Of a DNA stretch of 64,000 nucleotides, positions 72-63,072 are shown in pieces. The stretch covers positions 4,533,545 through 4,597,544 of the forward strand of contig BFEA01000041.1 in assembly GCA_003427395.1 (NCBI GenBank), in the 5' to 3' direction. The stretch's first letter is position 1. Each line of letters opens with the position of its first letter. The DNA comes from Chara braunii. Lineage: Eukaryota; Plantae; Charophyceae. A program made the translations under genes and the position numbers. The notes under the pieces were generated by a model. It did not search any database and was not told the DNA's origin. It saw only the letters and a list, made by a program, of their open reading frames with translations.

Positions 72-72
<1 letters not shown>

Positions 73-6277: not shown

Positions 6278-7239
6278 TGATGAATGTTGCTTTTCAAAAC
6301 TTCGTGCGAAAAACGCGGCTGGCGCAAAGCATTATTAATTATTGTGTGATTGTATATATGGATTATATTCTGGTATATTCGAGTACCTACGAAGGGCATG
6401 TGCAACACATTGAATGGACATTGCACACATTGAAGGACGCTGGATTTAAGGTGGCTCTCGAGAAGTGCTAGTTTTTCCTCACGACAATTGGCCGCGTGGT
6501 TACGGACAAGGGTTTGCAGCCAGAGCCTCAGAAGGTGGCAGCCTTTAAGGACGCACTGGTGCCGACATCAGTGACACAACTTGGGGGCTGACATCATACT
6601 ATCGGAGGTTTTATCAAGGGGTTTGCAGCGATTGCGAGGCCACTCACGAACTTGTTAAAAAAAGATCAGCCGTTGATCTGGACCCCGCAGTGCGATTGGG
6701 TCGTTCGAGAACTTAAGGCGACTCTGATCTCGGCCCCGGTCCTCATAAGACCGGACCCGGAAAAGCCTTTTGTCCTCCTCACCGATTGACAGCCCGAGGT
6801 GATCTCAACGATTTTGGCCCATGTGGGACCTGATGGCTTGGAACACATGGTGGAATACGCGTCCAAATCGATACCTACCTGCAAGCGGAACTACTTTGCT
6901 CCAATGGGAGAATGCTACGCGACATTGTGGGGAATCAGTCACTTCCGAGCCTATTTATATGGCCGGAAGTTCACATTGGTAATCGATCATGAACCATTGC
7001 TGGCCCTGAAGAAGTCCAAGGATTACTCGGGTATGATAGGACGATGGGCCACTACATTGCAGAACATGGACTTTGACATCCGCCATCGGAAACACGAGAG
7101 ACACGGCAACGCGGACGGACTGACACGACTGCACCGACCCGACAAAATACCCAACAGTGAGGAAGTGACACCGTGGCACGACCCGGAGGCGAAAAACGAG
7201 CCTCGGTACGGTAAGGTGGAGATCCTTCTGAAGAATTGA
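6278..7239 (+). pseudogene. pol: pol fragment: RT C-terminal half plus RNase H
   Basis: CVIVYMDY (decayed YxDD), ALEKC, YYRRFIKGF, TD.QPE, ECYA, DHEPL, HGNADGL. Contains stops and frameshifts. Confidence 0.9.
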
Positions 7240-7272
7240 GTGGATACACACACTCTCTCTCTCTCTGGAACC

Positions 7273-8975
7273 ATGACGCCCCCTTCTTCTTCTTCTTCTT
7301 CTCTCAACCCCCCGCACTCAGACTTTTTTGCCAATCTCCCTGACAAATTCTGTTATTTCTGCACATGTATCACACGGGTTTATGGGGTAGACTGTTATCC
7401 CTATGAGACTCGATTCACTGACTGGGTATATTGCGCCATATGTGTCAACCGTGCGCATGGCGCGTGTGTTCGATATCGAACGAGTAGTAAGGCATGGAAG
7501 TGTCGTCTGTGTCGAACGGATAAGCTTCCTATAGGGGTTCGATTCGAGGCTGCCAGAACTGACGTTCCCGAATACGGCGAAAAATACCGCAGGGCTGAAG
7601 TATGGACGAACAAGATATTACTGGCTAAATTAGTTGGTTAACCATTAGACCATCTTACTAAGCATGACAGACGTCGAGCAACGGAGAGGTCATGAGATTA
7701 TCAATGGATCAACGGTCATCTGGAAACGTGTAAAACCGACGGATCGGGATTATGGTTGACGGTTCCCCATCCATTTCAGTGATACGACTGGACCAAATTT
7801 GCGCACGAGGAGCAAGCTGCTCAATTTGTTATACGCGTCACCGAAGCAGCCATCGATCAGAATCGATGGTTCTGGTCTAACATTTGTGACGATGTTAGGC
7901 ACGTGGTTGCCAATTGTCTAGTCTGTGCTGCCGATCCTGTACCTAGCTGTGGGCAAAATACGATAGTTCCGACAAAAGTAGAGCGTCCTTTTCAACAGGT
8001 CGGTATGGACACGACAGACATTGACGTGCCACCTGATCCCAATCGTTGTGAATATTTCATTCTCTTGGTGTTAATCGAGCACTTCTCGAAATATATTGAA
8101 GTCTACCCCTGTAGAACATGTAAGGCCTCCGAAATAGCTAAATACATCGACCGATTCCTCAATACCCATCTGGATACAAAAGAGATTCTAACCGAGAATG
8201 GGTCCGAATTCAAAGTCGAGGTAGATGAATTACTGATGTGTCGTGGCGTTACCCTCCGACACACCGCTCCCCATGTCTCTCAGTCCAATGGGATGGCCGA
8301 GAACGCGAACCGCATGATGAAAACCGCTCTTCGCAGAAACTTAGCGGCCAATGACACGCGTCCTTGGCCCGAGATAGTGTATCAAATCATCGGGATCCAT
8401 CGAGCGACCCCTCATTAGTCCACTGGATTCACCCCCTTTCAGCTTCGAACAAATAGTATCCCATATGTCGACAATCGAAGTGTCTCGGAAATCGCCGAAA
8501 CAGGGGAAAGGGACACGCGGTCGGCTCTCAAGGCCAAGGCTAAGCGGTATGCGGAGTTAATGGAAAAGACTATCCCTAGGCTAGCCCGAAAAAGGCAGAA
8601 AATGACTGAACTAGCCCACAATAGGCGGTCCGTAGTTACGAGGCCCGGAATGAGAATGCAGACCCACAACACCAGTATAAGTTAGGGGACCTAGTGCAGG
8701 TACGTAAGTGTGCACGCGATCGAAAACTCGCTCCCAAGTTTTTTGGCTGCTTTCGCGTAGTGGAACTCGGCCCTAACGGAGCAAATACTGTGTACATCGC
8801 TCCTAAGACCGGCGCCTGCCATAACTCTCTTCCTATTGTCCGCCATACCTCCTACCTTCGCCCTCTCCCGCCCTCTGAGGACCCTATCTCGCCTTAGTCC
8901 TCTTTTTCCAGCCCAGACGAAGACCTTGCTTCCTCCCCTTTGTCTGATACTGCTTCTCCTCGACCTTCGCCATGA
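7273..8975 (+). pseudogene. PHD-finger/integrase ORF of element A
   Basis: PHD at 7351-7512 (CYFC..WVYCAIC-x4-H-GAC..WKCRLC), in frame with a decayed HHCC (AHEE..CLVC), a DDE core (MDTTD, LTENG, SNGMAE) and a GPY/F-like region (KLAPKFFGCFRVVE). Several premature stops. Confidence 0.85.
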
Positions 8976-9441
8976 GTTTCGCCATCGAACCGGCCCTTCC
9001 TGCGCAGCTTCTTCAGCCTCAACCTTCGTTGCAGTTTCGCCAAGTCTCGCATCCTTCCTCCGGTTTGCGCAACTGTTCAGCCACCGAGCCTGGTGCGCAA
9101 CTGTAGAAGTAACGATTTCAACAGAGTTGGGAGCAACGATCATCTTGGTGGAAGCTTCAGCGTTCGTGCGATTCTCCTAGCCTAATCAGAGTGATGTAAC
9201 GGTGATCGTCGCCTTCAGTGGTGATCTGTGCACTATCAGCTTTCAATGACGCAACGCGGTGGTCACCAGCCTCTACGAGTGGGGGAAGGCGTTGGTGGCA
9301 GATTGGCGGCAGCGACTGGCCCGGCCAGGCCGACAAGTAGTGGGGGCCGACTGTATCGATACTTTTTCTCTCCGAACTAGTAGCACTGATCCCCCATCTC
9401 GTCCCCTTCCCCCTCTTCGTCCTTACCCTTTGCGCAGATGA
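8972..9441 (+). pseudogene. Accessory ORF X1 of element A, unknown function
   Basis: MSFAIEPAL..RQVSHP..LRFAQLFS..TSLYEWGKALVADW..DCIDTFSLRTS is homologous to 59099-59509. One frameshift and two stops. Confidence 0.7.
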
Positions 9442-10243
9442 ATGGCTTCTCGACCTTCTCCCTCCCTTCTAATCTTCCAACTCTCTAGCCATCTTGGGCC
9501 GATCCCCTTCTAACCTTGGAGATTCGCCCCGCCACGATCCCTACCTTCTTACGTCCGCAAGTGGACTGAATTCACGTCAGTTAGCGTGTGCATGCTAACG
9601 GTGAGGTGTACGTGGGTTCGATACTACAACAATCGGGAGCTGGAGATCTATAACGAGATCTCGCTAGTGCTAGCGCAGGAGTGGTCGACAGAGACGGAGA
9701 CCTGTGGCACTTTAGTTGGACTTCTTTGTGGAGAGATTGCTGAAGGAGGTAGAGCGACGGTCGCCTACGAGCTCCTCACTTTCATGTCCTAGCTCGTCGA
9801 CGATCCGCCGACGAACATCATCTCCTTCAATCCAAGCGATCCTAGCCAAGCCGAGCCTGTCACATTGGAGAGGACGTTGACGCCAACAGTAATTTGGGGG
9901 AACTGTACAGAGGATTTCTGTCAATACTTGAGCGATCACAATCCCATGGTTTGGCGCTATCTGGACCTGGACGATCTTGCGCTGGATAATTCCGACCTAA
10001 ACGGTTCTGGAACGCTCATCAGGCACACCGCGAGGTGCCATCGGACGACGATCCGGGACGCATAGCCATCGCGGGTCTGTCAACGGAAGAAGAGTCGAAA
10101 GCCATATCAACGTCGAAGGAAGAAGAGGAGGCATCAACACCCGAGCCCTGAGAGGCTCCGCTGGCCCGAGCGCCACCTGTTGGATGGGAAGGATCTGCTT
10201 TGAACCCCGAAGTCCCTACTGACGTCGCCAGTCGACACGATGG
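9438..10243 (+). pseudogene. Accessory ORF X2 of element A
   Basis: MNGFSTFSLPS..SVCMLTVRCTW..QEWSTE..LVDDPP..RTLTP..YLD plus an acidic tail. Homologous to 59506-60456. Confidence 0.7.
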
Positions 10244-10833
10244 CGCAAAATCCTTCCGCTGCCACCACCGCTCTTGCTCACCATCTCCCTCCTCATCCAC
10301 CCCCTTCGCACTTCGTCCCCGTCCTCCTTCCCGGACAAGCCCTCCGACCTCGTCCAATCTACCACCGCCCTCTTGATTATCTCTCATTCTCTCCTCTTCC
10401 CCACATCGAGTTCCCTCCAAACTACCACATTTTCGCCAACCAGCTCTTCTGCCATCACTTTGCCGTGCGACTCTTATGCAAAGTCTTCCCTCATCGCTCC
10501 CCGTCCTTCCCTCTCAACATCCTTCTCTTCAGTGTCGCCTGGAGATAGTACAACCATATGAAGTTGTATTGCATCGTCTCCGCGACCTTTCCCGCAGTAG
10601 AGGACTATGAGTCCCTATGCGATAATGCCCTCCGCACTATCCCTACCCTGTATCCCGACTACCTCCTCTCTCTCTCCCGACCAAACCATCAATTCCCTCG
10701 AGCGCACCGAATCGTCCACTTTGTCGATCTCGGTGACGAAGCATCCGACTACTTCCCTCCGCTCCCAGCTGAATGGCCTAGACTTCTCCTCAACCCTCTC
10801 CTCATCAGTTACCGCCGAGCGGACTTTCAGTGA
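10240..10833 (+). pseudogene. Accessory ORF X3 of element A
   Basis: LRPRPIYHRPLD..LLFSVAWR..YCIVSATFPAVE..TLYPDYLLSL..FPR..PPLP is homologous to 60453-61042. One internal stop. Confidence 0.75.
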
Positions 10834-11154
10834 CTGAGCAGAAGCAGGCAAGATCGGCGGACCGTGATGGTGTCATTTGGACGACCGCCGCCAATCAAGG
10901 AGGCAGGAAGTTGCACATGACAGGGCTGGATGGTAGACGTCCTGAAAGAACGAGCCAGCGGATTCGCGAAGACACTGCAATTGAAGTTGGCATCAACATG
11001 GACTCTGGCCCGATCTAGTGCTCATACATCTTGATACGCTCGGTTCCTCATTCATCCCCTCGCCCCCTTCTTCCCCCTCCACCATGTACACTTGTTTTCA
11101 TGCATGCAATCAGGAGATCGCATAATTTTGGAACCCCCTTAGCGTCACATATTA

Positions 11155-13290: not shown

Positions 13291-13425
13291 CAATTTTTTT
13301 TTTTTTTAAACGGGCCAAGTACCCAAGGCTAATATTAGCAATAACAAGATTGAGGCCGGGGTCCTCACAGTCTACCCGGAGTGACCGAACCGAACTTGCT
13401 GAGAACCAGGCTCAGCGTCCCTCAT

Positions 13426-13461
<36 letters not shown>
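13426..13461. repeat. (GAT)n microsatellite
   Basis: Perfect trinucleotide run. Confidence 0.95.
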
Positions 13462-13464
<3 letters not shown>

Positions 13465-15180
13465 TTCTGCTGATTTTATCGAAAATATAGAAGACTATAC
13501 TATATCAACAATTCTGGCCTCATAATCCTAGAACAACTCCTAGCCCTCCTAGCCCTCCCTGTACCCGGGCATTACATCTCAAAGACAATCCCATCCTTAA
13601 CAACGTCAACCATAGCTGACCTGTTCTCAGTTCTGTCTGTGTCCCCACACTCAATGTTTCCAAAAATCCCTGGCACTCCCCATCTTTGTTGTTCTTCACG
13701 GGCCTTTCTGCAAAACAAAATACTCCGACCGGAAAGCAGCACAGGGCGTGAGGTTTGAGCGTCACAGCCTCCCTCGACGTGAGGGAGCTTTGCGGCGACA
13801 AGCTTTTTTCTACGGATTGGTTGGAGCTCTGCTTTACGGAAGGGTTGTCCTTCTTCTCTGCTTCCGGGTTGTTCATCCTTCTTAGGAGTTCCCTGTAAGC
13901 TCTCACCAGCGGGCCGGACGATGTTGCTTGCACCACAGCCGAGTGAGTTGTGATGGGCTGTGGCCCGTGAGGCTTCATGGGTTGACTGTTTATCAAAGTT
14001 GACCATCATCGGATGGGTCGCTTATTGTGGTCGGCTATCCAAGGGTTCGATCTTGCCTATTGTTGTTGAAGTGAGGGGGTTGGGCTCGGGAGGTGGATGG
14101 GTTGTCTTGGGAGCGCCGTGGAAAGTGTTGGTCATGCAGCGGTGTTGAGGTGCGTTGCTTGGGGTAAGTGGTGGCTGAAAGGTTGAGAGAGGACAATCAT
14201 TTCTCGTAATTGTTGAGAGCGGTAGTACAATACTTCTGGGTTGGGATGAGCAGTGCGCAACATCGATGGAGTGGGCACCAGGAAGAGGAAGAGATCAAGT
14301 GCCGGTGGAAGTAGACAGGAGAGCGGGAGAGGAGTATGGTTGGAATGGATGATTGAATGTTTACGTTGTCCTTCTCTCCAACTGGTGACGATGATCCCAC
14401 TTCATCGTGGGCTTTCTTTGTCTATCAGGAGAGTTTCTGTCTCGCTCGCTGCTACGCTTTCTAGCTTACTTTGAGTACTTCGTGTGAACTAATGTTGTAG
14501 TTATCTTATGCCTCCCAATTCATTGATCATTAGTTTTTGAAATTCAGAGGGTAATTCTAAAATCGATATTAAAAGGTTTGATTAATTTACTGATTAATTT
14601 TCATTATTTGAAGTGATTTCTCTATTTTCTGGATTACTTTTTGTTCTTGATTTCGAAAATCGGAATTTAATTTCAATACTTAAGATGTTTGTCTGAAATT
14701 TGTGCTTTGATTTTCTATTAATTCCAATACGTCGTGTTCTGATTTCCTACCCCTGATATCAACCGTAAATTAGAGTGTGTTTTCCTAATTACATCTCCTG
14801 ATATCGCATATCAACTATAATCCGAGTGTGTTTCCTAATTACATCTCCTAACTAAGTTCTCACGATTCTCATACCGTGGTTTGTGAATCAGATTCGAAAA
14901 TCCTTTTGGATATCCAAATCTAAAAGTCATCGCATATGTGTAACTCTTAATTTGAAAATTGTTTCGTCTCTTGATACTGATATTCATAAATCAGATTTCG
15001 AATTCTAATCTCTTGATTTTCATGACTCTAACTCGGTTTTCAATTCGGATTGCATGAAGTTTACCTCCCCTCATGAGTTAGTTTTGGTTTGGGGCAAGTA
15101 GGTGAAGGTTCTGATAAGATTTTGAGGTTTGAGTAGGGTTGGCAAGTTTCAGATGGTGGATCACTTTCGTTTTTCTTCTG

Positions 15181-15719
15181 CGAACTATGTGGTGGAGGAG
15201 GTCGGCTTGTCGCAAGAGGAAGTCGAGGGTTGTATGCTTTCACTTTTCTTCGTCTCGCGAACTGTGGGTGGAGGAGGTCGGCTTGTCGCGGGATGCAGTT
15301 GAATAAGGGGGTTAGGAAGAGTGTGGGTGCGGATCAGTTGTCTTTTACCTGCCTATTGAACAGGCGTGGGACTGAAATGGAGGGGGGAAGTTTTTTTGGT
15401 AATATTGCGTCCCGCTGGTGAGGAAGGCTAGCTCGCGGGATTGGATTAGGGCACAACTGCAGTTGAGATGGTGGCTTAGCTGTTGTAAGTCTGCGCCGAA
15501 AGGCGGTAAGGGGATGGGAGGTTATGGTGTTATGCCTGTTTTGCGATGGAGTGGACTACTTTTTCTTCCTCCGTCGAACTATGTGGTGGAGGAGGTCGGC
15601 CTGTCGAAGGAAGAGGAAGAATTGAAGCCTACTTGTCATCTCTATGGGATTTTGGCGAAGGCGTTGGTCTATTATTCTTCTCTCCTGAACTATGTGGTGG
15701 AGGAGGTCGGCTCGTCGCG
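15181..15719 (+). repeat. Four interspersed ~32-bp direct repeats
   Basis: GAACTATGTGGTGGAGGAGGTCGGCTTGTCG at ~15182, 15259, 15576 and 15687. Confidence 0.85.
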
Positions 15720-16362
15720 AGATGAAGAAGAGTAGGGGGTGAAAGGAAATAGGAGGAGGGCTGATTGTATTCTTTTCAAAAAAAAAAAAAATCTCAAAAA
15801 ATAGATCTTAGGGTTGACCATACGCGGATGGCTAACTGGTGGTCTTAAAAATGTTTTTGGACCCTGGGTCCTAGCAACTCTTCTCAGGTGGCTTCGATGT
15901 TGTCAGACTCAGTGACCTACGACTGTTTGATGCCAGAACGACGTTGGCCGGTGCTGGGGTGTTGCCCTGTGACCTGCTGACGCAGGAGAGTGAGGCCTAG
16001 TAGAGAGATCTGGGGATGCTTTGGGGTGGGCATTCCATGGCACAACTAAGGGTTGCTGCTGGGACGACCCTGGTCGGAGCGGGGGTGAGTTGTGTTGCCC
16101 TGTAACCCAGCAAGATGTGGGGGTGTGAGACCTGGAAGGGCTCGGCAGGGAGTAGGACAGTGTTGGAGTGCTTTGGAAGGGTTTGTTAGGGATTTCAAGG
16201 GTTTTTGAACATTTGTAGGACCTATGAGGTCTATTTCTATGTTTTCCGTATTGCTCATACGTTTTTTTTTTTTTTTTTAAGTCCAGGGTGTTGTAGAGGC
16301 CGCACCAGGTACCTATTGATTACTGGAAGCAGTCAGCCATGGTTGCCCTAGGTTGGCCGACT

Positions 16363-23499: not shown

Positions 23500-24720
23500 A
23501 TGGTTATTGCATGCTGGGACGGCGATGGTTCAAAAGGATCGTTAGGGGATGCTCCTCAAATTCTCTGTGTTTCAAATGATGACTTGAGGCAACAGCAAGA
23601 TAATTCTCCGGGTGTGTCGCAGGATTCAGGAGAAACACTAATAAATCAGCAGCTGCAGCAGCACCTTAGCCTACAACAGCTGCAGCTACAGTCTCAGCAG
23701 TCTCCAAAGCAGACAGTGGTGGACCTAACGGTAGACGTCAGTCCACAAACCATTTTGGTACAACAGGTCCACCCAGAACATGGAGATCAACAACAAACAC
23801 AGATGCTACTTCTGCAACACCAACAGCAGGATCCCGCTCAGGAAGTCAGTAGCTCGGTTCAGAAACAGCAGCCACACAAAGATGTTTGGAGCGGAGAGTT
23901 GGACCACCCCTCCCCCATCCAAGGCACTCATCAAAAGGGGGGCCTGGTTTTGTTTCCTACCCCGGTATCGCAAGAGGCAGGGAAGCGCCAAAAAATTGAG
24001 GAATACTTTAGAGAGTGGACAAGCAATTAGACCACAGAACCCTAAGGGTAACCTCTTTATTCCCGTAAGGAAGAAAGGGAATAGGTGGGACATCGGGCTA
24101 TCACGTATTGGACAAGACCAATACGGAGGGGTAACTCTAAGGGGCTGGTCCACGTATGTGGAGTATTACAGTGCGGGAGACCGGGTTTTCAAAAGGGACC
24201 TGCATGACTTCATCTCTAAACACTATGACCCTGGGCAGCAGGCTACAATGACTGAGATAGGGGATCGGGCTGTAATGGCTAAGAGAGATACCTTAATGGG
24301 CCTCAAATGGTGCTCTCATGCTGCATTGCTTGATCTGCAGATTTTAAAGATTAAAGCTAATGCTGTATGGTCAATATCAAAGACTGTGACTTTTGTATGT
24401 ATTATTCTGTGCAGAGGGCTGCTTCAGCCTTCGTCTGACCTAGATACAAGTCATTGGGTTAGACTCTAATATGGTATGGATTGAGTAATGGTTAGCTGGG
24501 ATGGAAGCACTTCAGACATTTTATTGGAAGAATCCCCATTGGAGTCATGCGGCCAGAACAACCAACCTTGATATAAGGTCATTAAATGATTAAACGTAAA
24601 TGGGTTGGCCACTGCGGGTGCGGAAAACGAGAGGCGGTTAGCGGAGGCCCTAATTTTCAGACAACTTGTCATGCCATTTATAACAAAATCCAAGGGTCAT
24701 TTTAACCAAACTTGCCACCA
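23500..24720 (+). pseudogene. LINE fragment: Q-rich ORF1 tail, conserved extra domain and start of APE endonuclease
   Basis: 24030-24469 is homologous to 26900-27367, and LNVNGLATA at ~24590 matches FLNVNGLTTA at ~27476. Truncated before a poly-A at ~24754. Confidence 0.7.
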
Positions 24721-24817: not shown

Positions 24818-27367
24818 ATGCAAATTTTGCCAACATTCAGTTTCAGAAATCTCACCAATGAAAAAATCAAGTGGATCTGTAAGCGATTGGCTGCTTACAA
24901 AGGCAGCCATGAAGCGATGTGTCAAGACTTTCTAATTCTTCCAATTTCCTCAACTATTTTCACAGTATTGTGCCTACACACAGCAGACAAGACAATAATA
25001 GAAGGCTGGCACAAACTAAGATGCGAACGATCGGAGGTAAGAATCTATCCTTGGTCGCCATCGAAACAGGGACCGGATGAAAAACGCAAACAAATGATGG
25101 AGGACTTCTATTGGGTAGAATTTAGACACATCCCAATAGAAATACAAGCAGCCTTCATATATGACTTTGAGATCAACGACGATATTGTAGACTTCATAGA
25201 TCCCCTTCCCGCTTATGCGGCAAAAAGGGATGACTATTTGATGTTAGCCCTTAATCAACCGACCAACACACCCTTCAATATAGATGATGTCATTCCCTAC
25301 AGGGTAGGGGGTCGATAATACCCTATTCACACGGTTCATAAGTTGAGACCATGGTGTTTTAGGTGCAGGGCTTATGGTCATCTGAGTACAGATCCGGCCT
25401 GTGCTCAAAATCCGGCAAAAAAAAATCGAGCCACAGGTAGACTTATCCGAGATCCTTTTAAACCAAACCTATGGCGTACGGTGGATGCGGGACACAAGGG
25501 GTGGGTGTACATAGAAAGTTCTAAAAAGGGTGAGGTTCCCCAAGGCTGGACATGGGAACGTAAGGAGGAACCTAATTGCGAGGCTAAGCCACCGGACTCA
25601 TGGGTATCGCCAGAAGCTTCACCAAGGGCAGCAGGGAAAGGGAAATCCCCTCAAAGTAACCATAAAACAACATCTGAGCCGATGATAGATGATGGAACAC
25701 AGGGTATCACCACCTCTGGGGGAAGGGGAACAGCTGCTCAGCAGGAGGCAAAAGGAGCACCAGTCTCTCAGAGTAAGGGAAAAAAATCTTTAATCCAACA
25801 GCAATGGAGACCGGTGCTTAAAGGTGGGAAAGCAGTCAATGATGGAAGGAATACTCTACCAGAACCAAAACCTACCGATTATGTAATTCAAGGAAATAGG
25901 GCTCATTTTTCTTACACGAGGAGGAGGAAGGATCAGATATTGAGACAGAAAGAAAAAATGATAAGGAAAAGGAAGGTGCCCTCATGATCAAGTCCCCATT
26001 TGGTATTGCAGTTAATGAAGGACAAGAGGGAGGGGAAAGGAAAAAAAAAAAAAAGGAAACAAATCACTGGGCCAAGTAAGGACACTGACCTCAATATAAT
26101 AGTAATAACATCCTCACAAAACAAGATAGGCGGAGTAGAACATGTGGCCCCGGTAGCAGAAACAGACGAAATGTTGGAGGAGAAACAAAAAAAGGAGCAC
26201 ACAGAGAAGGAAGAAAGGACCGCGGACCCGTTCCTGGGAGCATTTGGTCCAGCACCAATGGAAGTGGATTCTCCTTCACCAGAAGAAGACTTTGAAATGG
26301 GATAGGCAAACACACAAGAGAATTCAAATTGCTCTGAAGATAATAGGTTGAAACAGTTGACCGAATGGTTAATTAAAACCCTAAAGACCCGACATGGGGA
26401 CGACTCGGTTGAATTCTGGGATACTTCGTACATCCAACTCCTTAACCTACTAAGTAGTAGTCCCAGTCTCAACCAGGTATTGGAGCAAGGTCTACCCGAA
26501 GGCGCCAGCTGGTCAAGAATAAGCGAGCGGATCTTGAACATTGTGGAAGAATTGTTTCAGCCACCAATTTCATCCCAAAATAAGGGCTCTATCAAGGAGG
26601 GGGATGATTCAAGACATGACGAAAGTCTGGTGATCGAAGTATTAATGAACAGCAAGGATTCAACTACAACTGATGAAAGGAAGGAGCGTATAACAGTGGT
26701 GGAAATAGGTGAAGAAGACCAATGTTATTCCTCTTCACAACCAAGAAAGAAAAAAATAGAAGCGGAAGAGGTAACAAAAGGAGAAGAAATGATTGAGAAT
26801 TCAGACTCCCACCAAAAAGAATCACCCAAGATCAGTGTGAAAGAGGGAGCAGATTCAGACAAAAGAATGAAAATGCGTCATGCATTAGAAAAGGGCTATG
26901 TTGCAGGTTTACCCTCTCCCAGAGGAAACTTGGTGATCCCAGTACGAAAGAAAAGTGGGAAGTGGGAAGTTGGTCTTTCCCCAATAGGACAGGATCAGTA
27001 CGGGGGAGTGACATTAAGAGGATGAATCACACACGTTGATTACCAAAGCCCGGGAGACAGGACATTTAAAAGAGACCTGCATGATTTTCTGTCAAAACAT
27101 TACGACCCAGGACCCCAAGTTACGCACACGGTAATGGGGGATCAGGCTAATATGGCCAAGCGTGATACATTTGTGAAATTTGAGGATACTAAGGAAGTCG
27201 GGCTTAGATGGTATTCCCATGCGGCTCTACTAGAACTACAGCAGCTAAAGATTAAGGCTAATGTAGTATGACCGGTTGCGGAGGTATCATCTTTCCTATG
27301 CTTTGTTATTCTCAACAGACTGCTCACCTCCTCGACTTCACTAGGAGGAGGATGGGTGAGGTTGTAA
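24818..27367 (+). pseudogene. LINE ORF1 (RRM-like region, Zn knuckle, long low-complexity linker, extra C-terminal domain)
   Basis: VRIYPWSP..YWVEFRHIP and CFRCRAYGHLSTDPAC. Multiple stops. ORF1/ORF2 boundary uncertain. Confidence 0.7.
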
Positions 27368-50858: not shown

Positions 50859-53158
50859 TGTGACGAACCAATTTCTGTTCCGCGCGTTCCGCGCGATTTT
50901 CTCCGCGATAACAATGAGGGGTCCTAAGATGGGAAGGTTCGGCCAATTACGGGAAATCGGGATCGAAGGGAAATTGCATCAGTGTCCTCGCTTCTTCGTC
51001 TTCTTGCGTCGCTTCTTTTCAGATGGCTGGGTTCAGGTCTGGGCAAGTTCTGGGATGATCGGTTGAGAGGCGCGCCGATGTGCACGCGAGTAATAATGGT
51101 TGACGTCATCTCTTTTTGTTTTGGCTGTCGGAATTTAAGCGCGGAGATCGCGCGGGAATTTTGCTTCGTTCTTTTTTAATTTTCTTTTAAATTCCTTTTG
51201 AATCTTGTCAAGCCTTGACGGCTCTCGAAACTTAGGATTTTCTTCTCGAAATTTGTGCTTTTTGCGTTTTCGCATTAGATAGGAATTTTGGAATTAAGGA
51301 TTTCATTTTGCCGCGCAACGCCTTTTGCTTGCGCGCTTCTTTTTGCGGCTGCAATGGAGCTTTGATTAGTCGGCACCCTTAATCTTGCAAGTAACCGTAA
51401 TTTTGGGCGGACGCCATTGTAACTGTATCTTTCTTCTTGAGCTTCGTCTTTCCCGCTCTCTCTCTTTCCCTTTTGCTGTGCCTAGTTAGCCCGCGGCCTG
51501 CATGCTCGGATCGATGCGTGGACTCCGTGGAGAGTGGCTACGTCCCCCACGCCACGGTCTGGTCATGCAAGACGTAGGCGCTCCCTCTCCTAATCTCCTT
51601 TCTAAGTCCTTGCAATTCTGTGTTCTTCGCGCTTGCATGCACGCTATAAATTTCGGTTGCACGATTAGATAGCTCCCTTAACCAGTTGCTGGAAGCTCGG
51701 GGTAGCGCGATCAGTGAGGGTTGCGCGGGGTTGACGTGTGGGGCTACGACGGACTGTAACGCGTGGGCGAACCTGACGGGTGTAGGAAGACTATGCGGGG
51801 TGACGACTTCGTGGGTTGGTGCGTGATGACAGACTATCCGCATCAGAGAGAGAGGAAGAGGAAGAGAGAGCTGAGGTTGACGGGCGTGGATTTGCAATTT
51901 TCTTTGTCTTTTCCTTTAGTTTGTATATAAGTTTTGATTTCGGCTCGAGCGATTCGCTCTCATTTCCCTTCGGCATCTTTGTTTCAATACTAGTCCTTGT
52001 ATGATGTCTCGTTCTGTCTCGGTCCTCCCTCTTTTGTGTGTATGAGACGAACTAGCTGAGATGGAATGATATGTTTGTCGAATTTGCCTAGTCATCATCG
52101 TTGATTTTTCACTGTGATCCGCTGATTGATGTGATATGAGTTCTGATTATTGTTGCGATGTCTGGTGTGTGCTGACACCTTGCATGCTCGGAAATGACTA
52201 CTGAATGATTAGATGATTGGATAGTATCCAGGATACGTGACGATTTTGCATGAGGGATCAAGTTCTCATTTAGGTAGCCAAGAGGCCCGGGTGCTAGCGA
52301 ACACCTCGTGTGGATACGTGTAAGCGCGATCTGAAGCGTGCTGCCCACACGTGTCCACACGCGGCGAGTCGCGATCGTGGGGAACCTGGCACCTCCGGTA
52401 TCATGATAGGCGAGGAATTCCCCACTATGTCGCAATGACAAGATGTCGGATACATGGGACTCAGGGTACTTCGAGCCTTGGGAAGAAAAAGAATATCGTA
52501 GGCGAAGATGCCCGGAATTCCCCTGCCTGACCGAGAACAGATTGTGCCCCAGGGAGTTCCACTGCGCCGTAACCAGTGATCCAAGGTGCCCCGATTACCC
52601 GACTACGTATAACACGCAATACTTCATATCCCTTGGCTTCGTCGTTATCGCTACCAATTTCCCTCCCTTCCGTCTCCTCCTTCCGTATAACCAACTCACG
52701 GTGGTACCGTGGAATTCCATCGCCCCACACTGGCCCCGCATGCCGTGCAGGAATTGCAGACGACGCGGCCACCGCCGAACCCTTGGAACTTCGGAACCCA
52801 ATCATAACGCGCGGGGACAGACGCCACGTGTCTGCACCCGAAGGTCCGACTCATAAGAATCACGACCATCACGGACGGGCCTCTCCCCGAACCGCCGCCC
52901 CTAAAACAGACGGATTGGACGGCCCTGGATGCACCACGCATTCCATCTGCCTTATGCTGCACGACATCGACCGCCATCAGATCGGAAGTAACTCGCCCCT
53001 TAGCTCTATTGAATCTATGCCCATGAACCCTTGCCACAAGAGATCTCAGTTCCGACTTGGGACTCCACCCCCACTTTCCCCAAAAATCCTTGGCACACCC
53101 CTTTTCGCACTTCCAAGCCCTCATCCCACTCCGATCAGGAAGTCGCGACGGGCGTGAG
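50859..53158 (+). repeat. 5' LTR of element B (~2.3 kb)
   Basis: Matches 61292-63072 up to 52616. The right end is inferred from the PBS and a degenerate GGGCGTGA end without the terminal CA. Confidence 0.75.
52443..52856 (+). CDS. 137-aa LTR-embedded Cys-rich ORF, unknown function
   Basis: Open ATG-to-stop frame with protein-level similarity to 12663-13150 and a CRNCRRRGH motif. Confidence 0.6.
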   Translation: MSDTWDSGYFEPWEEKEYRRRRCPEFPCLTENRLCPREFHCAVTSDPRCPDYPTTYNTQYFISLGFVVIATNFPPFRLLLPYNQLTVVPWNSIAPHWPRMPCRNCRRRGHRRTLGTSEPNHNARGQTPRVCTRRSDS

Positions 53159-57545: not shown

Positions 57546-59102
57546 CAGAGGTAAACTTGTGAATGCCCTCTCTCCCCTCTCATCCTCATCTCTTCTCTCC
57601 CTACCCCACAAATTTTGTTATTTTTGCGAAGCAATTTCGCACGTCTACTCGGTCCCTATGCGTCCTAGTGGGGAGGGATATGCAGAATGGATAGATTGTC
57701 GGCAGTGTGTCGCACGAGCCCATGGCTCGTGTATCCAGTACATAAATAACGATAAGCCTTGGTTGTGTTCCTTGTGTCGGCTTGATAAGATCCCGACCGA
57801 GGCTCGATTTTTTGATGCCACGTCCGTAGGGTTGGAAAAGACCCGAAAGTTTAGACGGGCCGAGGTATGGACGAATATCGCTCTAATAGCTACCTTGGTA
57901 GGAAACCCCCTCCAGGACTTCACTAAAGAAGACCGGAGGAGGGCCAATGAAAGGGCTCAGGACTATCATTGGAACGAGGGCCGGTTGGAAAAATGAAAGA
58001 CGGATGGTAGTGGGATCTGGTTGGTAGTGCCGCACCCGTTCATGAGGTGTGACTGGGTTAAGACGACGCATGAGGAAACTGCAGCCCATTTTGCCGTACG
58101 GATCACGGAAGCGGCAATCGATAAAAATGAATGGTATTGGTCCAACATTTGTGACGATGTGAAATTCATCGTCGCGAACTCCCAGGTCTGCGCTGCTGAC
58201 AAGGCGTCGATTCAGCCGCCAAGATCGATAGTGTCGACGGTAGTCGAACGACCTTTTCATAGGGTTAGCATGGATACTACCGATATTGTGGTGCCCCTTG
58301 GACCTTATAGCTGCGAATATTCAATCCTACTGGTACTTATAGACCACTTCTCAAAATGGATCGAGGCATTTCCGTGTCGTACGCGACAGGCAGCTGAAAT
58401 TGCGCGATACGTCAACCGGTTTTTAGGGATGCATCATGACATAGAGGAGATCCTCACCGATAATGGGGTAGAATTTAGAGAGGAAGTTTTAAGGAATCTG
58501 GTCGTACATGGCGTCGCCCTTCGGAACATTGCACCCCACATGTCACAGTCTAACGACCTGGTAGAAAACACGAATCGGGTGATAAAGACAGCATTGCGAA
58601 CGAAACATCGTGGCACAGGATCTGAGGCCCTGGCCCGATATCGTAGATCACATCCTGGCGGTCCATCGGGGAATGCCTCACGAATCGATGGGCCTTCTAG
58701 CCCCTTCCAATTACGAACCAATAGCGTAGCTTGTGTCTCGATACCGAGCATCCCCGATGAATCTTCATCGAACCGGCGGCCCACAAGAGCCACGGTTCGG
58801 GACAAGGCCAAGTGGCATATGGGGAAATGTGCTCGCCAAGGGAAGATAGCGCCACGATTCTTCGGGCGATTTCGTGTGATTGAGCTCGGCCCGAACGGGG
58901 TGAACACCGTGTGCCTCGTGCCGGAGGTCTCGGGAAGCTGATCGGCATGGCCGATCGTCCACCACGTGTGCTATCTACGTCTTCTCCCTTCCTCTCCATC
59001 TCCAGTTGTGTTTGCTTCCTCGACGACGACTCTCTATCGCTCTCATCCCCCCCTTCATCTCTCGCCCCTTCTCACACCCCGTCCCCATCGCCATCGCCAT
59101 GA
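57542..59102 (+). pseudogene. PHD-finger/integrase ORF of element B
   Basis: PHD at 57616-57777 (CYFC..WIDCRQC-x4-H-GSC..WLCSLC), then THEETAAH..SQVC, MDTTD, LTDNG, SNDLVE and KIAPRFFGRFRVIE. Confidence 0.87.
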
Positions 59103-59509
59103 GTTTTCTCACCGAGCGAGCTCTCGGCGATCACATGTTGGCGCCGCGTGGCGACATTTCGGCAATTCGGCAAGTTCGTCATCCGCGGCTCAGTCCAGAT
59201 CTGCTCCGACTCGCGCAGTTCTTCAGCACTACCGGGGTGTACGCGGCGGCAGAGTTCTAGTTCACGGGCCATCGTCAAGCGGTCGTGTTGGCAGAGGCGA
59301 CGGCGGTTCGACAGTTGTGAGCATCAGGAGTTAGGACGTCGCTAAGGGAGTGGGGCCAACAGCTGGCAACGGAGTGGAATCAGTGGCTTACGCGCCGCGG
59401 CGACAATCTTGTCCCCACAGATGGCATCGACGCCGGAGGGCTTCGAACGTCTCGGCACGAGCCGGCGGTGGTGCTCCCTGAGCTTGTCCCTTTCCAGCAC
59501 CCCCAATGA
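59099..59509 (+). pseudogene. Accessory ORF X1 of element B
   Basis: ATG and final TGA in the same frame with two internal stops. Homologous to 8972-9441. Confidence 0.7.
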
Positions 59510-60456
59510 ACCGCTCCCAGCTCTCTACCTTCGCTCTCCCATCTCTCTTCGCTACCTTCTGGCAATCTAACCTTTGCCCCCGTCTCTCCTTTCGTCTGGA
59601 ATCACTCGTTGTTCCCCTCCTCGATGGAAGACAGTGGGAACGGTGGTGCGGACACTTCGTCAATCTTTCGGTATGTCTGGTCGGAGTACAGCTGACGTGG
59701 ACGAGGGACATAGAGCACCGCGCCGGGAGCGAATACCTGGAGCTGTTGATCATCCAAGCTTGGAGGACGGAGGTGGAAGGAGACCTCCTCGGATTTCTGT
59801 CGGGATCGGTGCGACCCGGCCATCGACAGCTGATCGTACAGGAACTCACGATTCCCCTCGCGCAGCTGGTCGACGATCTCCCTCGCGATTTCGCTTCGCA
59901 GAGTGACGAAAGTCTAGTCCCGCACGTCCTTTCACGAACTCTAACGCCCCACCTGCAGTGGTCGGCCTGCCTCGAGGAGCAGGGCAGTGACAGTAACCCG
60001 CCATCGCAACGAGAATACCTGGACCCACGGAGGATAATCGACCTCGCCTTCTTTCAGCCTCCAACGACCTCCGAGGAAGAAGTGCTAACGCTAGAGGAGG
60101 AAGAAGAAGAGAGCGAGGGAGATGACGACGAGGAAAAAGGAGAAACCCCAGAAGAAGGGAGTTACAGCGAGCATAGAGAGGGAGAACAGAGCGAGGAGGA
60201 GGAAGAAGACGAGGAACAAGAGGAGTGTGAGTGGGAAAGCGTAGGCGAGGAGGCGGGCCGCGCAGAGACCCAGGAGGAAGATCCAGAGGCGGTAGCGCCG
60301 CGCAGAGAAGAGATCGCGGTCGATAAGCAGCCGCTAGAGTACGCGAGTGGGACGGATCTGCCAATCTCGGACGATCCAGCCAAGGATCCGGAGCCACCCA
60401 AGCCAGAGGATGGGGACCTTGCTGCCGAGACTTCGAGCGCACCAGCCCGACGGTGA
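59506..60456 (+). CDS. Accessory ORF X2 of element B (316 aa, folded-looking N-terminal domain plus Glu-rich tail)
   Basis: Uninterrupted ORF whose first ~180 aa align with 9438-~10000. Confidence 0.75.
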   Translation: MNRSQLSTFALPSLFATFWQSNLCPRLSFRLESLVVPLLDGRQWERWCGHFVNLSVCLVGVQLTWTRDIEHRAGSEYLELLIIQAWRTEVEGDLLGFLSGSVRPGHRQLIVQELTIPLAQLVDDLPRDFASQSDESLVPHVLSRTLTPHLQWSACLEEQGSDSNPPSQREYLDPRRIIDLAFFQPPTTSEEEVLTLEEEEEESEGDDDEEKGETPEEGSYSEHREGEQSEEEEEDEEQEECEWESVGEEAGRAETQEEDPEAVAPRREEIAVDKQPLEYASGTDLPISDDPAKDPEPPKPEDGDLAAETSSAPARR

Positions 60457-61042
60457 CGAAGCCGATCCCCCTCCCCCTCCCCCTCCGCCCGTCCACCAGT
60501 TCGAGCTCGTACCGATGCGGGGCATCGGGCTCCGTCCCCGGTCCTTATCCCGTCGTCCCCTTGACCACCTCACCCTGCGCCAGATCACCACCCGCATCAC
60601 CTTCCCCCGCAATCCCTTTCTCATTGACACCTTCCGCTTTTTTTATGTCACCCGTCTTGCTGTCACGGTTCATCCCCANCCCTCTACNCGGTGTGCCACC
60701 CCTGTCTTCTNTCTCCANGCCCTTCTCTTCAGTGCCGCGTGGCGAGGCCACAACATCATCGAGGTTTACTGCATGATCACGGGGACTATCCCCGCATGCG
60801 AAAACCACGATCACTTCCGCACGACACTCTTCCCAACTTTCACCACCCTCTACCCCGACTATCTCGCATCCCTTCCTCATAGTGGTAATCGATTCCCTCG
60901 CTTTCATTGGATCATCCGATATCAGGAGCTTCCGGTGACAGTAGCGAGAATGGAGAATTTCCTACCCCCGCTCCCGACTAACCCACCCCCTCGCCATGCC
61001 CCCATGTATCGTCTTCCCTTTCCTCTTCCCGTCAGTCATTGA
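60453..61042 (+). pseudogene. Accessory ORF X3 of element B
   Basis: LRPRSLSRRPLD..LLFSAAWR..YCMITGTIPACE..TLYPDYLASL..FPR..PPLP. Start inferred, with a frameshift in a C-run. Confidence 0.72.
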
Positions 61043-61291
61043 TGCATGGTTGATCGGCGCGTGCCTCGACGATGGCACGTATAATCCCCTCCTTGGATTG
61101 AAAAGAGTCCTTCCTGAGGAATTTTTAGGAGAGAGTCACGTTTACCACAATGGATGACTTCCACACTCCTTCGCACGGTTGGTGGCAACGTAGAAAGCTC
61201 CGCGTGTCGATCGATTAGGGAGATCAACACGTGTCGTAATGACAAGCAAGCAGGAGCTTGCTTAAGATTGGAACCCCCTGGGCGTCACATA

Positions 61292-63072
61292 TGTGACGAA
61301 CCAATTTCTGTTCCGTGTGATTTTCTGCGCGATAACAATTAGGGGTCCTAAGATGGGAAGGTTGGTCCAATTACGGGAAATCAGGATCGAAGGGAAATTG
61401 CATCGGTGTCCTCGCTTCTTCGTCTTCTTGCGTCGCTTCTTTTCGGATGGATGGGTTCAGGGCTGGGCAAGTCCTCGGATGATCGGTTGAGGGGCGCGCC
61501 AATGTGCGCGCGAGTAATAATGATTGACGTCGTCTCTTTTTGTTTTGGCTGTCGGAATTTAGGCGCGGAGATCGCGTGGGAACTTTGCTTCGTTCTTTTC
61601 AATTTTCTTTTAAATTCCTTTTGAATCTTGTCGAGCCTTGACGACTCTCAAAACTTACGATTTTCTTCCCGGAATTTGTGTTTTTTGCGTTTTCGCATTA
61701 GATAGGAATTTTGGAATTTGGAATTTAGGATTTCCTTTTGCCACGCAATGCCTTCTGCTTGCGCGCTTCTTTTTGCGGCTGCAATGGAGCTTTGATTAGT
61801 CGGCGTCCTTAATCTTGCAAGTAAACGTAATTTTGGGCAGACGTCATTGTAACTGTATCTTTCTTCTTGAGCTTCGTCTTAACCTCTCTCGCTTTTTCCC
61901 TTTTGTTGTGCCTAGTTAGCCCGCGACCTGCATGCTCGGATCGATGCATGGAGAGTGGCTACGTCCCCCATGTCGCGGTCTGGTCATGCAAGACGTAGGC
62001 GCTCCCTCTCCTAATCTCCTTTCTAATTCTTTGCAATTCCATGTTCTTCGTGCTTGCATGCACGCTATAATTTTCGGTTGCGCGATTAGATAGTTCCCTT
62101 AACCAGTTGCTGGAAGCTCGCGGTAGCGCGATCAGTGAGGGTCGGCTCACGAGCGAAGTAAGGGGTAAGTTGAAGTGGGAGTCGGGCGACCCGACGAGCT
62201 GGTGCCGAATGCGCGGGGTTGACGCGTGGGGCTACGACGGACTGTAACGAGCGGGCGAACCTGACGAGTGCAGAAGGACTAAACGGGGTGACGACTTCGT
62301 GGGTTGTGGTGCGTAACCACGGACTGTCCGAATCGGAGAGAGAGGAAGAGGAAGAGAGAGCTGAGGTTGACGGGCGTGGATTTGCAATTTTCTTTGTCAT
62401 TTCCTTTAGTTTGTATCTAAGTTTTGATTTTGGCTCGAGCGATTCGCTGTCATTTCCCTTCGGCATCTTTGTTTCAATACGGGTCCTTGTATGATGTCTC
62501 GTTCTGTCTCGATCCTCCCTCTTTGGTGTGCATGAGACGAACTAGCTCCGATGGAATAATATGTTTGTCGAATTTGCCTAGTCATCATCGTCGTTTTTTC
62601 ACAGTGATCCGCTGATTGGTGTGATATGAGTTCTGATTGTTGTTGCAATGTCTGGTGTGTGCTGACACCTTGCATGCTCGAAAATGACTACTGAATGATT
62701 AGATGATTGGATAGTATCTAGGATACGTGATGATTTTGCATGACGGATTAAGTTCTCATTTAGGCAGCCAACAGGTTTGGGTGACCTCGTGTGGATACGT
62801 GTAAGCGCGATCCGAAGCGCGCGGCCCACACATATCCACGCGCAGCGAGTCACGATCGTAGCGAACCTGGCACCTCTGGTATCAGGATAGGCGAGGAATT
62901 CCCCACTATGTCGCAATGACAAGATGTCGAATACATGGGACTCAGGGTACTTCGAGCCCTGGGAAGAAGAAGAATACCCTGCCTGATCGAGAACTGATTG
63001 TGCCCCAGGGAGTTCCACTGCGCCGTAACCAGTTATCCGAGGTGCCCCGATTACCCGACTACGTATAACACG
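61292..63072 (+). repeat. 3' LTR of element B, truncated or interrupted
   Basis: Colinear with 50859-52616 with substitutions and indels. Similarity stops abruptly after ..cgtataacacg. Confidence 0.92.

What the first reader, a model, noticed from the sequence alone, without database searches (positions are those of the whole stretch)
59099..61042. Three conserved orphan proteins (X1, X2, X3) between integrase and the 3' LTR
Seen: the same three ORFs occur in the same order in A (8972-10833) and B. They align as protein (TSLxEWG..LxxxW; SVC..TW.R..Q.W.TE..LVDD.P..RTLTP; LLFS.AWR..YC....T.PA.E..TLYPDYL.SL) where the DNA is strongly diverged, which implies purifying selection. I see no signal peptide or clear transmembrane helix, so they are not a typical env. 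X2 has a long acidic tail. Inference: an accessory module, for example for particle structure or cell-to-cell movement, silencing suppression, or histone-chaperone-like activity alongside the PHD integrase.
Basis: partly seen in the sequence, partly recalled or inferred. Interest (0 to 1): 0.72.

Follow-up and report, generated by a model that had tools for sequence, protein, structure and literature searches.

The report
Three extra genes in Chara retrotransposons
This stretch holds broken copies of three overlapping extra genes that jumping genes of the stonewort alga Chara braunii carry after their integrase; the genes match no known protein family and are predicted to make non-enzymatic helper proteins.

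Summary
Copy B (59099-61042) and copy A (8972-10833) lie between the integrase and the 3' LTR of two related Ty3/gypsy elements. Their DNA cannot be aligned, but three + strand stretches align as protein (33-37% identity, E 1e-10 to 2e-21), and third codon positions are the least conserved.

The layout is the same in both copies. X1's stop overlaps X2's ATG as ATGA. X3 starts at an ATG inside the end of X2, in the +1 frame, with an overlap of 155 nt in B and 137 nt in A. All six ORFs in the window are damaged or uncertain.

An exhaustive profile search found 139 protein clusters. All 24 that I checked are Chara braunii hypothetical proteins. They include an intact stand-alone X1 (160 aa), intact X2 (345 and 362 aa) and one complete X3. 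Of the top 70, 33 also carry retroelement domains.

X2 is a moderately confident alpha/beta domain followed by an acidic tract and an Arg/Ser motif. I found no Pfam match, no relative with a solved structure, no reliable fold match, no transmembrane helix and no homologue outside Chara.

This is a lineage-restricted accessory cassette of a known general kind (additional ORFs after pol). Its function is open. My best guess is an acidic nuclear adaptor with two partners.

The parts
59099..59509 (+). Copy B, X1 ORF (about 160 aa in intact relatives). Broken here by stops at 59258 (TAG) and 59318 (TGA) and by a gap of about 24 residues. Its terminal TGA (59507-59509) overlaps the ATG of X2.
   Evidence: P0100 (160 aa, MSF...QRPQ) is an intact stand-alone relative. 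9 of 16 proteins printed start MSF.
59506..60564 (+). Copy B, X2 ORF. Alpha/beta core (about 59506-60066), acidic tract (60067-60453), then an Arg/Ser motif and the family's usual stop at 60562. A premature TGA lies at 60454.
   Evidence: AF2 model of the core: mean pLDDT 69, core about 80. 19 of 24 database proteins with the RS motif end about 35 residues after it. P0058 and P0012 are whole X2 ORFs.
60410..61042 (+). Copy B, X3 ORF (210 codons from its ATG; the frame is open from 60347). It is +1 relative to X2 and overlaps X2's end by 155 nt. N at 60679, 60688, 60711 and 60718.
   Evidence: P0140 carries a complete X3, 62% identical over 95% of B's. Three-way alignment.
8972..9441 (+). Copy A, X1. 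Frameshift near 9040-9055, stops at 9178 and 9247. The terminal TGA at 9439 overlaps X2's ATG at 9438.
9438..10376 (+). Copy A, X2. The ATG at 9438 and the family stop at 10374 are in one frame. The core (about 9556-10010) is displaced into another frame by indels and holds several stops. The acidic tract is short.
   Evidence: Compared with P0002, P0003 and P0005.
10240..10833 (+). Copy A, X3 (ATG 10240, in-frame TAG at 10546, stop at 10831). It is +1 relative to X2's frame and overlaps it by 137 nt.
58021..58941 (+). Copy B integrase ORF (zinc-binding H2C2 and core domains). Its stop lies 157 nt before X1's ATG.
   Evidence: Pfam rve E 7.7e-09 and Integrase_H2C2 E 3.7e-05.
58980..59005 (+). 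Pyrimidine-rich run ending in AG between the pol stop and X1's ATG. Possible 3' splice site for a subgenomic mRNA (inference only). A has a similar run at 8900-8911.
   Evidence: Read from the sequence. No splice joint was seen in RNA reads.
61292..63070 (+). Copy B 3' LTR. The 5' LTR is about 50882-52614. The two are about 91-96% identical in blocks.

Best explanation
The region holds broken copies of three overlapping accessory genes (X1, X2, X3) that Ty3/gypsy retrotransposons found so far only in Chara braunii carry between integrase and the 3' LTR, and their products are predicted to be non-enzymatic helper proteins, X2 likely an acidic nuclear adaptor.

Shown:
- The gene order is gag, protease, RT, RNase H, Cys-rich finger, integrase, X1, X2, X3, LTR.
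- X1's stop overlaps X2's start as ATGA in both A and B.
- X3 starts at an ATG in the +1 frame, 137-155 nt before X2's stop, in both.
- X2 is a folded alpha/beta core, then a Glu/Asp-rich tract, then an RRRSRSPSPS-type motif.
- X1 and X2 are one continuous ORF in some relatives.

Inferred:
- The three genes would be read from a subgenomic (probably spliced) RNA. X2 would be translated by termination-reinitiation at the ATGA. X3 would be translated by internal initiation or a +1 shift.
- X2 would enter the nucleus through its basic Arg/Ser motif. There it would use its acidic tract to bind basic partners (histones, or the element's own nucleocapsid or integrase) and so help the element's nucleoprotein reach or use chromatin.
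- X1 (pI 6.1) and the basic X3 (pI 10.0) would act as its partners.

My odds: real accessory genes under past selection, about 0.85. Three separate overlapping ORFs and not one, about 0.7. The acidic nuclear adaptor role, about 0.3.
For: Coding history:
- Protein-level matches occur in one frame per ORF while the DNA is unalignable.
- Third codon positions are the least conserved, and pN/pS is 0.51-0.56 with synonymous sites saturated.

Family:
- 139 clusters at E<=1e-3, of which 114 at <=1e-10.
- By my local domain table, 135 of 139 hit X2, 16 hit X1 and 2 hit X3.
- Median pairwise identity of 105 X2 cores is 44%.
- 33 of the 70 scanned carry retroelement Pfam domains. In P0048 the order is RT, RNase H, integrase, X2.

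Separate ORFs:
- P0100 is X1 alone and ends where B's X1 ends.
- 6 gene models begin with Met at X2's start (P0012, 34, 37, 42, 45, 58).
- 19 of 24 proteins with the RS motif end about 35 residues later.
- The ATGA junction and the +1 overlap are the same in A and B, although their DNA is otherwise unalignable.

X1 and X2 working together: they are fused in P0030, P0047 and P0048.

X2 build:
- AF2 gives the core a pLDDT near 80.
- 94 of 102 relatives have at least 25% Asp+Glu in the 100 residues after the core.
- Whole X2 proteins have pI 4.3.

Not enzymes by any library tried: no Pfam match and no PDB sequence match other than acidic-tract or RT noise.
Against: - No function was tested and no fold match rises above the tool's own noise bar. 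The best is Z 6.1, and the top rows differ between the two models.
- X3 rests on three sequences only (B, A, P0140). Two further searches for X3 in proteins of similar length found none.
- The database proteins are automatic gene models, many of them chimeric (host domains in 5 of 70). Their starts, ends and fusions could be artefacts. P0140, P0141, P0011 and P0026 each join X2 to X3 at a different point.
- RNA reads are sparse, come from diverged copies, lie in both orientations and show no splice joint.
- DNA contig depth over X1 and X2 is 5-10 times lower than over pol at 90% likeness (833-2691 against 11680-15741). Many copies may therefore lack the cassette or have diverged there.
- The acidic tract is short in the A-like subfamily.
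- Both window copies are dead.
Confidence: 0.55

Rival explanations
1. X1, X2 and X3 are pieces of one long ORF3 protein (about 650 aa), which later mutations split in the window's copies and in many database copies.
For: In A, the matching parts of all three lie in one frame. P0030, P0047 and P0048 read X1 into X2 without a break. P0140 reads X2 into a complete X3, and P0011, P0026 and P0141 into part of it.
Against: A's single frame results from indels. Its X2 ATG (9438) and X2 stop (10374) share a different frame from its core. X1's stop, X2's Met and X2's stop recur in many diverged relatives. The four X2-X3 joins occur at four different points, as expected from private indels or from predicted introns that bridge a frame change.
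Confidence: 0.15
2. X2 regulates the element's RNA, like Cer1 CERV or retroviral Rev. Its Arg/Ser motif would bind RNA or export and splicing factors and bring unspliced genomic RNA out of the nucleus.
For: The RRRSRSPSPS-type motif is conserved in A-like and B-like subfamilies, while the acidic tract varies in length. [quoted passage not shown] It is nuclear, phosphorylated and needed for genomic RNA export (PMC10309623, passages read).
Against: No RNA-binding domain was detected. The motif is short and could be only a nuclear import signal.
Confidence: 0.15
3. The cassette serves spread between cells or membrane-linked assembly, a role like env or a movement protein but without a classical envelope protein.
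For: It sits where env sits. For one of the two models, the top structural rows are lipid-binding TULIP-type domains (BPI Z 6.1, rmsd 3.8, 122 aligned; latherin 5.6; CETP 5.6).
Against: There is no signal peptide-like or transmembrane segment. Those Z values are below the tool's stated noise level of 7-8, and they do not recur with the second model. Foldseek against viral models gave no movement protein above E 0.09.
Confidence: 0.08
4. The region is not a set of element genes. It is either host gene fragments captured by transduction, or non-coding sequence kept for a cis-acting role.
For: Only Chara proteins match, many in gene models without retroelement domains (32 of 70 with no Pfam domain, 5 of 70 with host domains only). 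The X3 region also scores weakly in two other frames (43 and 28.5 bits).
Against: The position and order are the same in two anciently diverged elements. The genes are linked to pol domains in 33 of 70 models. There is codon periodicity. X2 has a confidently predicted folded core. There is no homologue in any other organism among 1.84 billion representatives (24 of 24 checked are Chara).
Confidence: 0.05

Closest known systems
[quoted passage not shown]
   Same: Same position and orientation. Present across copies and families and not as a one-off capture. No similarity to host genes. Function unknown.
   Different: Here there are three overlapping ORFs, not one. There is no transmembrane segment, unlike the env-like aORFs of Athila or Bagy2 named in that review. 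The host is a charophyte alga.
CERV of the C. elegans Ty3/gypsy element Cer1 (PMC10309623, passages read)
   Same: A lineage-specific, non-env protein encoded in part by the ORF after pol. No homologues outside the host genus.
   Different: CERV comes from a five-exon spliced mRNA that borrows gag exons. No such RNA is shown here. No sequence comparison was made. X2's alpha/beta core plus acidic tract is not described for CERV in the passages I read.
ORF3 diversity of bdelloid rotifer LTR retrotransposons (PMC5408684, abstract read)
   Same: Ty3/gypsy-type elements that carry varied third ORFs after pol.
   Different: The rotifer ORF3s named in the abstract are env-like fusion proteins, GDSL esterases or DEDDy exonucleases. 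None of these domains is found here.
Close-packed, ATGA-overlapping ORFs of caulimoviruses, read by reinitiation (recalled, not from a call)
   Same: A stop and a start share ATGA between consecutive genes in a reverse-transcribing element of the green lineage.
   Different: Caulimoviruses have no LTRs or integrase and use a dedicated transactivator. Reinitiation is not shown here. There is no sequence similarity to any caulimovirus protein in Pfam scans.
Acidic nuclear chaperones built as folded domain + acidic tract + basic signal (nucleoplasmin, ANP32, SET/NAP; recalled)
   Same: The overall build of X2: a folded N-terminal domain, a long Glu/Asp tract with embedded aromatic and Ser residues, and a short basic C-terminal motif.
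   Different: No fold or sequence match to any of them. This is resemblance of architecture only.

Membership tests
Additional ORF of an LTR retrotransposon (sense, between pol and 3' LTR) | Lies between the pol stop and the 3' LTR on the coding strand of a bounded LTR element | tested here: met
   Integrase stop at 58941, X1-X3 at 59099-61042, LTR from about 61292. LTR pair about 92% identical.
Additional ORF of an LTR retrotransposon (sense, between pol and 3' LTR) | Present in many copies or families and not as a single capture | tested here: met
   Present in both A and B. 139 clusters. 33 of 70 carry retroelement domains.
Additional ORF of an LTR retrotransposon (sense, between pol and 3' LTR) | Kept by selection as protein | tested here: met
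   pN/pS 0.51-0.56 with saturated pS. Third codon position least conserved. Only a two-copy comparison was possible.
env-like ORF | Signal peptide and/or transmembrane helix | tested here: not met
   The highest Kyte-Doolittle 19-residue mean is 1.17 in all three ORFs of B and in A's read-through. This is a simple scale, not a dedicated predictor.
env-like ORF | Expressed from a spliced subgenomic mRNA | tested here: inconclusive
   A pyrimidine run ending in AG precedes X1 in A and B. No joint in the few RNA reads laid.
Known enzymatic accessory domains of LTR elements (dUTPase, extra RNase H, GDSL esterase, DEDDy exonuclease, demethylase) | Pfam match to the domain | tested here: not met
   No Pfam family at E<=0.01 for X1, X2 or X3 of B, nor for P0100, P0012, P0058 and P0140. 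The only row at E<=10 is NS3_helicase_C at 0.092 on X3.
TULIP / BPI-like lipid-binding fold | Structural match clearly above background | tested here: inconclusive
   BPI Z 6.1, rmsd 3.8, 122 aligned, with six more TULIP-type chains at Z 4.7-5.6 among the top 13 rows for the B X2 model. For the P0035 model BPI drops to Z 4.2. The tool's noise level is 7-8.
Histone chaperone-like acidic proteins | Long acidic tract | tested here: met
   B tail is 32% Glu with net charge -43. 94 of 102 relatives have at least 25% Asp+Glu after the core.
Histone chaperone-like acidic proteins | Fold or sequence of a known chaperone family; histone binding | tested here: inconclusive
   None is listed in Pfam, PDB sequence or fold searches. 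Binding is not testable with these tools.
CERV (Cer1) | Sequence or fold similarity to CERV; nuclear phosphoprotein needed for RNA export | not tested
   No CERV sequence was on hand. Only passages of PMC10309623 were read.
PHD finger (in pol, beside the finding) | C4HC3 spacing and a Pfam PHD match | tested here: inconclusive
   The spacing C-x2-C-x23-C-x2-C-x4-H-x2-C-x11-C-x2-C is read in both A and B (printout). Pfam PHD and PHD_4 give only E 0.05-0.19, below their cut-offs.

The most novel reading that the evidence does not exclude
A retrotransposon of a streptophyte alga carries a three-gene, virus-style polycistronic cassette. The stop and start are coupled by ATGA, and the third gene overlaps in the +1 frame. 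Its acidic X2 protein is a new fold that binds histones or the silencing machinery, which lets this clade spread through the Chara genome. This would be a retrotransposon-borne chromatin or anti-silencing factor with no known relatives.
Probability: 0.12. Interest if true: 0.75.

Novelty: new variant of a known kind. Interest (0 to 1): 0.5.

Why it matters
Extra ORFs after pol are common in LTR retrotransposons, but almost none has a known role. This case offers a large, old and diverse family: 139 clusters, with a median core identity of 44%. Its three genes have a conserved overlapping layout, and one has a foldable core. That gives clear targets for expression, localisation and binding tests in a lineage close to land plants. 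If the ATGA coupling and the +1 overlap are used in translation, the cassette would also show how a eukaryotic retroelement expresses several genes downstream of pol.

For genome annotation, more than a hundred Chara braunii 'hypothetical proteins', some fused to host domains, are better read as pieces of this retrotransposon cassette.

Tried and rejected
- **Other genetic code.** I considered one for A's many in-frame stops and dropped it. TAG, TGA and TAA are all present.
- **Minus-strand ORFs.** 59846-60496 (216 aa) and 59388-59849 (153 aa) mirror the acidic tract. The minus frames match A far more weakly.
- **One single ORF3.** This was my first reading. I dropped it.
- **Protein searches for X3.** B's X3 among proteins of similar length: none. 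Alignment of B, A and P0140 X3 among proteins of similar length: none. Among longer proteins: 4, all Chara.
- **ESM Atlas.** No usable hit for the X2 core or for X3 of P0140. The Atlas's own model of P0140 has pLDDT 0.38.
- **PDB by sequence profile.** Only acidic-tract matches to Orc1 and RT matches from co-aligned flanks.
- **Foldseek.** PDB best E 0.33 and 0.038. Viral BFVD best E 0.005 with TM 0.27. I trust none of these.
- **VIA-align wide, both models.** No Z of 8 or more.
- **X1-X2 complex prediction.** No verdict.
- **Sequencing runs.** No RNA holder listed. Laid RNA reads were few and showed no joint. A pile at 60070-60139 comes from an unrelated acidic-repeat transcript.
- **Whole genome.** None is held, so I could make no copy census and no dN/dS among young copies.
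- **Earlier findings of this scan.** Nothing for this genome or for this sequence.
- **Literature.** Three searches found no paper describing these ORFs in Chara. The Chara genome paper itself did not appear in any of the three listings and was not read, and its supplements were not seen.
Full report
**Setting.** The window is eukaryotic and holds two related Ty3/gypsy LTR retrotransposons.

Copy B is bounded by LTRs at about 50882-52614 and 61292-63070, which are 91-96% identical in blocks. Between them Pfam finds gag (53306-), an aspartic protease (54701-), reverse transcriptase (55420-), RNase H (56469-) and integrase (58021-58941).

Copy A (about 6250-13100) lacks its 5' part. It keeps RT, RNase H, integrase, the tail and a 3' LTR.

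RT/RNase H and integrase of A and B are 53-61% identical as protein.

**The observation.** The tail of B (58800-61400) has no blastn match in A's tail. The only A match is a 75-nt block just before the LTR.

Translated, three colinear + strand stretches match:
- X1: 32.8% over 119 aa, E 1.2e-10.
- X2: 37.0% over 138 aa, E 3.7e-16.
- X3: 36.7% over 166 aa, E 1.8e-21.

All other frame pairs score much lower (at most 43 bits).

On protein-guided codon alignments the third position is the least conserved: X1 0.51/0.65/0.23, X2 0.44/0.60/0.33, X3 0.61/0.65/0.40. pN/pS is 0.51-0.56, against 0.30-0.37 for pol. pS is 0.69-0.84, so it is saturated and a true dN/dS cannot be given.

A protein-guided alignment favours positions 1 and 2 by construction, so I also aligned the DNA alone. 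The period of three persists in X1c and X3. It is absent after X3's stop and weak in X2, where the DNA alignment is poor.

No segment reaches a transmembrane-like hydropathy: the maximum is 1.17.

**Relatives.** I built a profile from A's read-through plus B's three pieces and ran it against 1.84 billion representative proteins. It found 139 proteins at E<=1e-3, 114 at <=1e-10 and 30 at <=1e-30.

A local domain table shows X2 in 135 of the 139, X1 in 16 and X3's first half in 2.

I looked up 20 of the 139, spread over the whole ranking. All 20 are Chara braunii hypothetical proteins. So are the 4 proteins found with X3 among longer proteins, two of which are among the 139. That makes 24 of 24 checks, on 22 different proteins. 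The window is therefore from Chara braunii or a very close relative.

Of the top 70 hits:
- 33 also carry RT, RNase H, integrase, protease or zinc-knuckle domains.
- 5 carry only host or DNA-transposon domains, so they are chimeric gene models.
- 32 carry none.

The X regions themselves match no Pfam family.

The family is old. Median pairwise identity of 105 X2 cores is 44%, with a range of 20-100%.

**Anatomy.** At first I read the three pieces as fragments of one ORF, because in A their matching parts share a frame. The relatives argue against that.

X1:
- P0100 is a 160-aa protein that starts MSF, as X1 does in A and B, and ends where B's X1 ends.
- 9 of the 16 proteins printed start with MSF.

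X2:
- Six gene models start with Met exactly at X2's start.
- P0058 (362 aa) and P0012 (345 aa) run from that Met to the family's usual end.
- Of 24 proteins with the Arg/Ser motif, 19 end about 35 residues after it.

Junctions in the window:
- X1's TGA overlaps X2's ATG as ATGA in both copies (B 59506-59509, A 9438-9441).
- X3 has an ATG in the +1 frame (B 60410, A 10240). This lies 155 nt (B) and 137 nt (A) before X2's usual stop (B 60562, A 10374).

Two junction geometries shared by lineages whose DNA no longer aligns are unlikely to be chance. A's apparent single frame comes from indels that displace its X2 core.

Some relatives do fuse the pieces. P0030, P0047 and P0048 read X1 into X2. 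P0140, P0141, P0011 and P0026 read X2 into X3, each at a different point. These may be private indels or predicted introns, and I could not check their DNA. The X1-X2 fusions at least suggest that the two act together.

**State of the window's copies.** Both are dead.
- B X1 has stops at 59258 and 59318 and lacks about 24 residues present in P0001 and P0100.
- B X2 has a TGA at 60454 where relatives read on.
- B X3 is open but contains four N.
- A has eight internal in-frame stops and several frameshifts.

DNA contigs of the same species cover pol at summed depths of 11680-15741. They cover X1 and X2 at only 833-2691, and the start of X3 at 6061, at 90% likeness. So the tail is more diverged among copies, or absent from many.

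**The proteins.**

X1 (pI 6.1) is modelled poorly.

X2 has three parts:
- Its core is modelled with moderate confidence. The B core with 113 sequences gave mean pLDDT 69, pTM 0.64 and core blocks at 74-85. The order is strand, helix, three long strands, long helix, strand. The same layout appeared in P0035.
- After the core comes a Glu/Asp-rich tract with embedded conserved Ser, Tyr and Trp positions. In B this tail is 32% Glu with net charge -43. The tract is present in 94 of 102 relatives but short in the A-like group.
- Last comes an RRRSRSPSPS-type motif and a Pro/Ser-rich end.

Whole X2 proteins have pI 4.3.

X3 is basic (pI 10.0) and rich in Pro, Phe and Leu. It is conserved among B, A and P0140.

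**Search for a known fold or family.**
- PDB by sequence profile: nothing relevant.
- Foldseek against PDB and against viral models: nothing trustworthy.
- VIA-align over 48,161 chains, B X2 model: lipid-binding TULIP-type domains and Aha1-N on top (BPI Z 6.1, rmsd 3.8, 122 aligned). This is below the tool's stated background of 7-8.
- VIA-align, P0035 model: a different and equally weak list, best Z 5.6.
- ESM Atlas: nothing.

I therefore assign no fold.

**Expression.** Three oligo-dT RNA runs of the same species label were laid on B. Only one (X6) gave scattered reads over the end of pol and over X1, X2 and X3. Nearly all were under 95% alike, so they come from other copies. They lay in both orientations and showed no splice joint.

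A pyrimidine run ending in AG lies between the pol stop and X1's ATG in both copies (B 58980-59005, A 8900-8911). It could be a splice acceptor. That is inference only.

**Mechanism.**

Shown: the position, the order, the conserved overlaps, the coding history, the restriction to Chara among what was searched, X2's build, and the lack of any enzyme signature or membrane segment.

Inferred:
- The cassette is read from a subgenomic RNA.
- X2 is translated by reinitiation at the ATGA.
- X3 is translated by internal initiation or a +1 shift.
- X2 is an acidic nuclear adaptor that binds basic partners, with X1 and X3 as co-factors.

I put about 0.3 on that specific role. A CERV/Rev-like RNA export role, suggested by the Arg/Ser motif, gets about 0.15. 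A spread or membrane role gets under 0.1.

[quoted passage not shown] Rotifer elements carry env-like, esterase or exonuclease ORF3s (PMC5408684, abstract). Cer1's CERV is the best-studied non-env example (PMC10309623, passages).

This cassette belongs to that general kind. It differs in having three overlapping genes, in its host, and in matching none of the described families. Three literature searches found no description of it. The Chara genome paper and its supplements were not read and may bear on that.

Two earlier notes of this scan describe acid-tailed accessory genes after integrase in other organisms' gypsy elements. I did not test any link.

**Verdict.** This is a real, conserved, lineage-restricted accessory cassette, present here as two dead copies. 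It is a new variant of a known kind, of moderate interest, and its function is open.

Noticed in passing
window 57616-57777 (B) and 7351-7512 (A): A Cys-rich finger lies between RNase H and integrase in both copies, with the spacing C-x2-C-x23-C-x2-C-x4-H-x2-C-x11-C-x2-C (C4HC3, PHD-like). Pfam PHD models score only E 0.05-0.19, below their cut-offs.
   Followed up: partly
window 61227-61298 (B) and 11088-11161 (A): This is the only DNA block of the tail that still aligns between A and B (77% over 75 nt). It ends in a palindrome (CGTCACATATGTGACG in B) that spans the start of the 3' LTR. It is likely the polypurine-tract and LTR-end region needed in cis.
   Followed up: no
window 6051-6280 and 11197-11426: A 230-nt direct repeat (92%) flanks copy A's truncated interior. 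An LTR fragment sits directly before the truncated RT, so A looks like a deletion derivative that lacks gag, protease and part of RT.
   Followed up: no
window 60070-60139: In all three RNA runs, reads with identical mismatches and foreign flanks pile up here (36-64 deep on one orientation). They come from an unrelated transcript with a similar acidic repeat, not from the element.
   Followed up: partly
window 60420-60629: In run X6 the reads over the start of X3 are almost all of one orientation (first mate on -: 3.6-14.5; on +: 0-0.5). Elsewhere on the element both orientations are similar. There are too few reads to interpret.
   Followed up: no
window 23780-24469 and 26348-27025: Two ORFs share a motif (..IPVRKK..W..GLS.IGQDQYGGVTLRG..) and lie beside an ORF with a CCHC-like Cys pattern (25343-25987). 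None has a Pfam match at E<=0.01. This may be another unclassified repeat.
   Followed up: partly
database proteins P0008, P0014, P0020, P0044, P0054, P0057: These Chara braunii gene models fuse the X2 domain to host-type domains (zf-CW/Morc6, DDE transposase, Rieske, glycosyl hydrolase 17 + X8, P450, Ulp1 protease). They are most likely annotation chimeras that run through retrotransposon fragments.
   Followed up: no
window 1-104 and 2872-2944; 60679-60718: Long (GA)n runs sit at the window's start and beside an N gap. The window holds 566 N, four of them single N inside X3.
   Followed up: no
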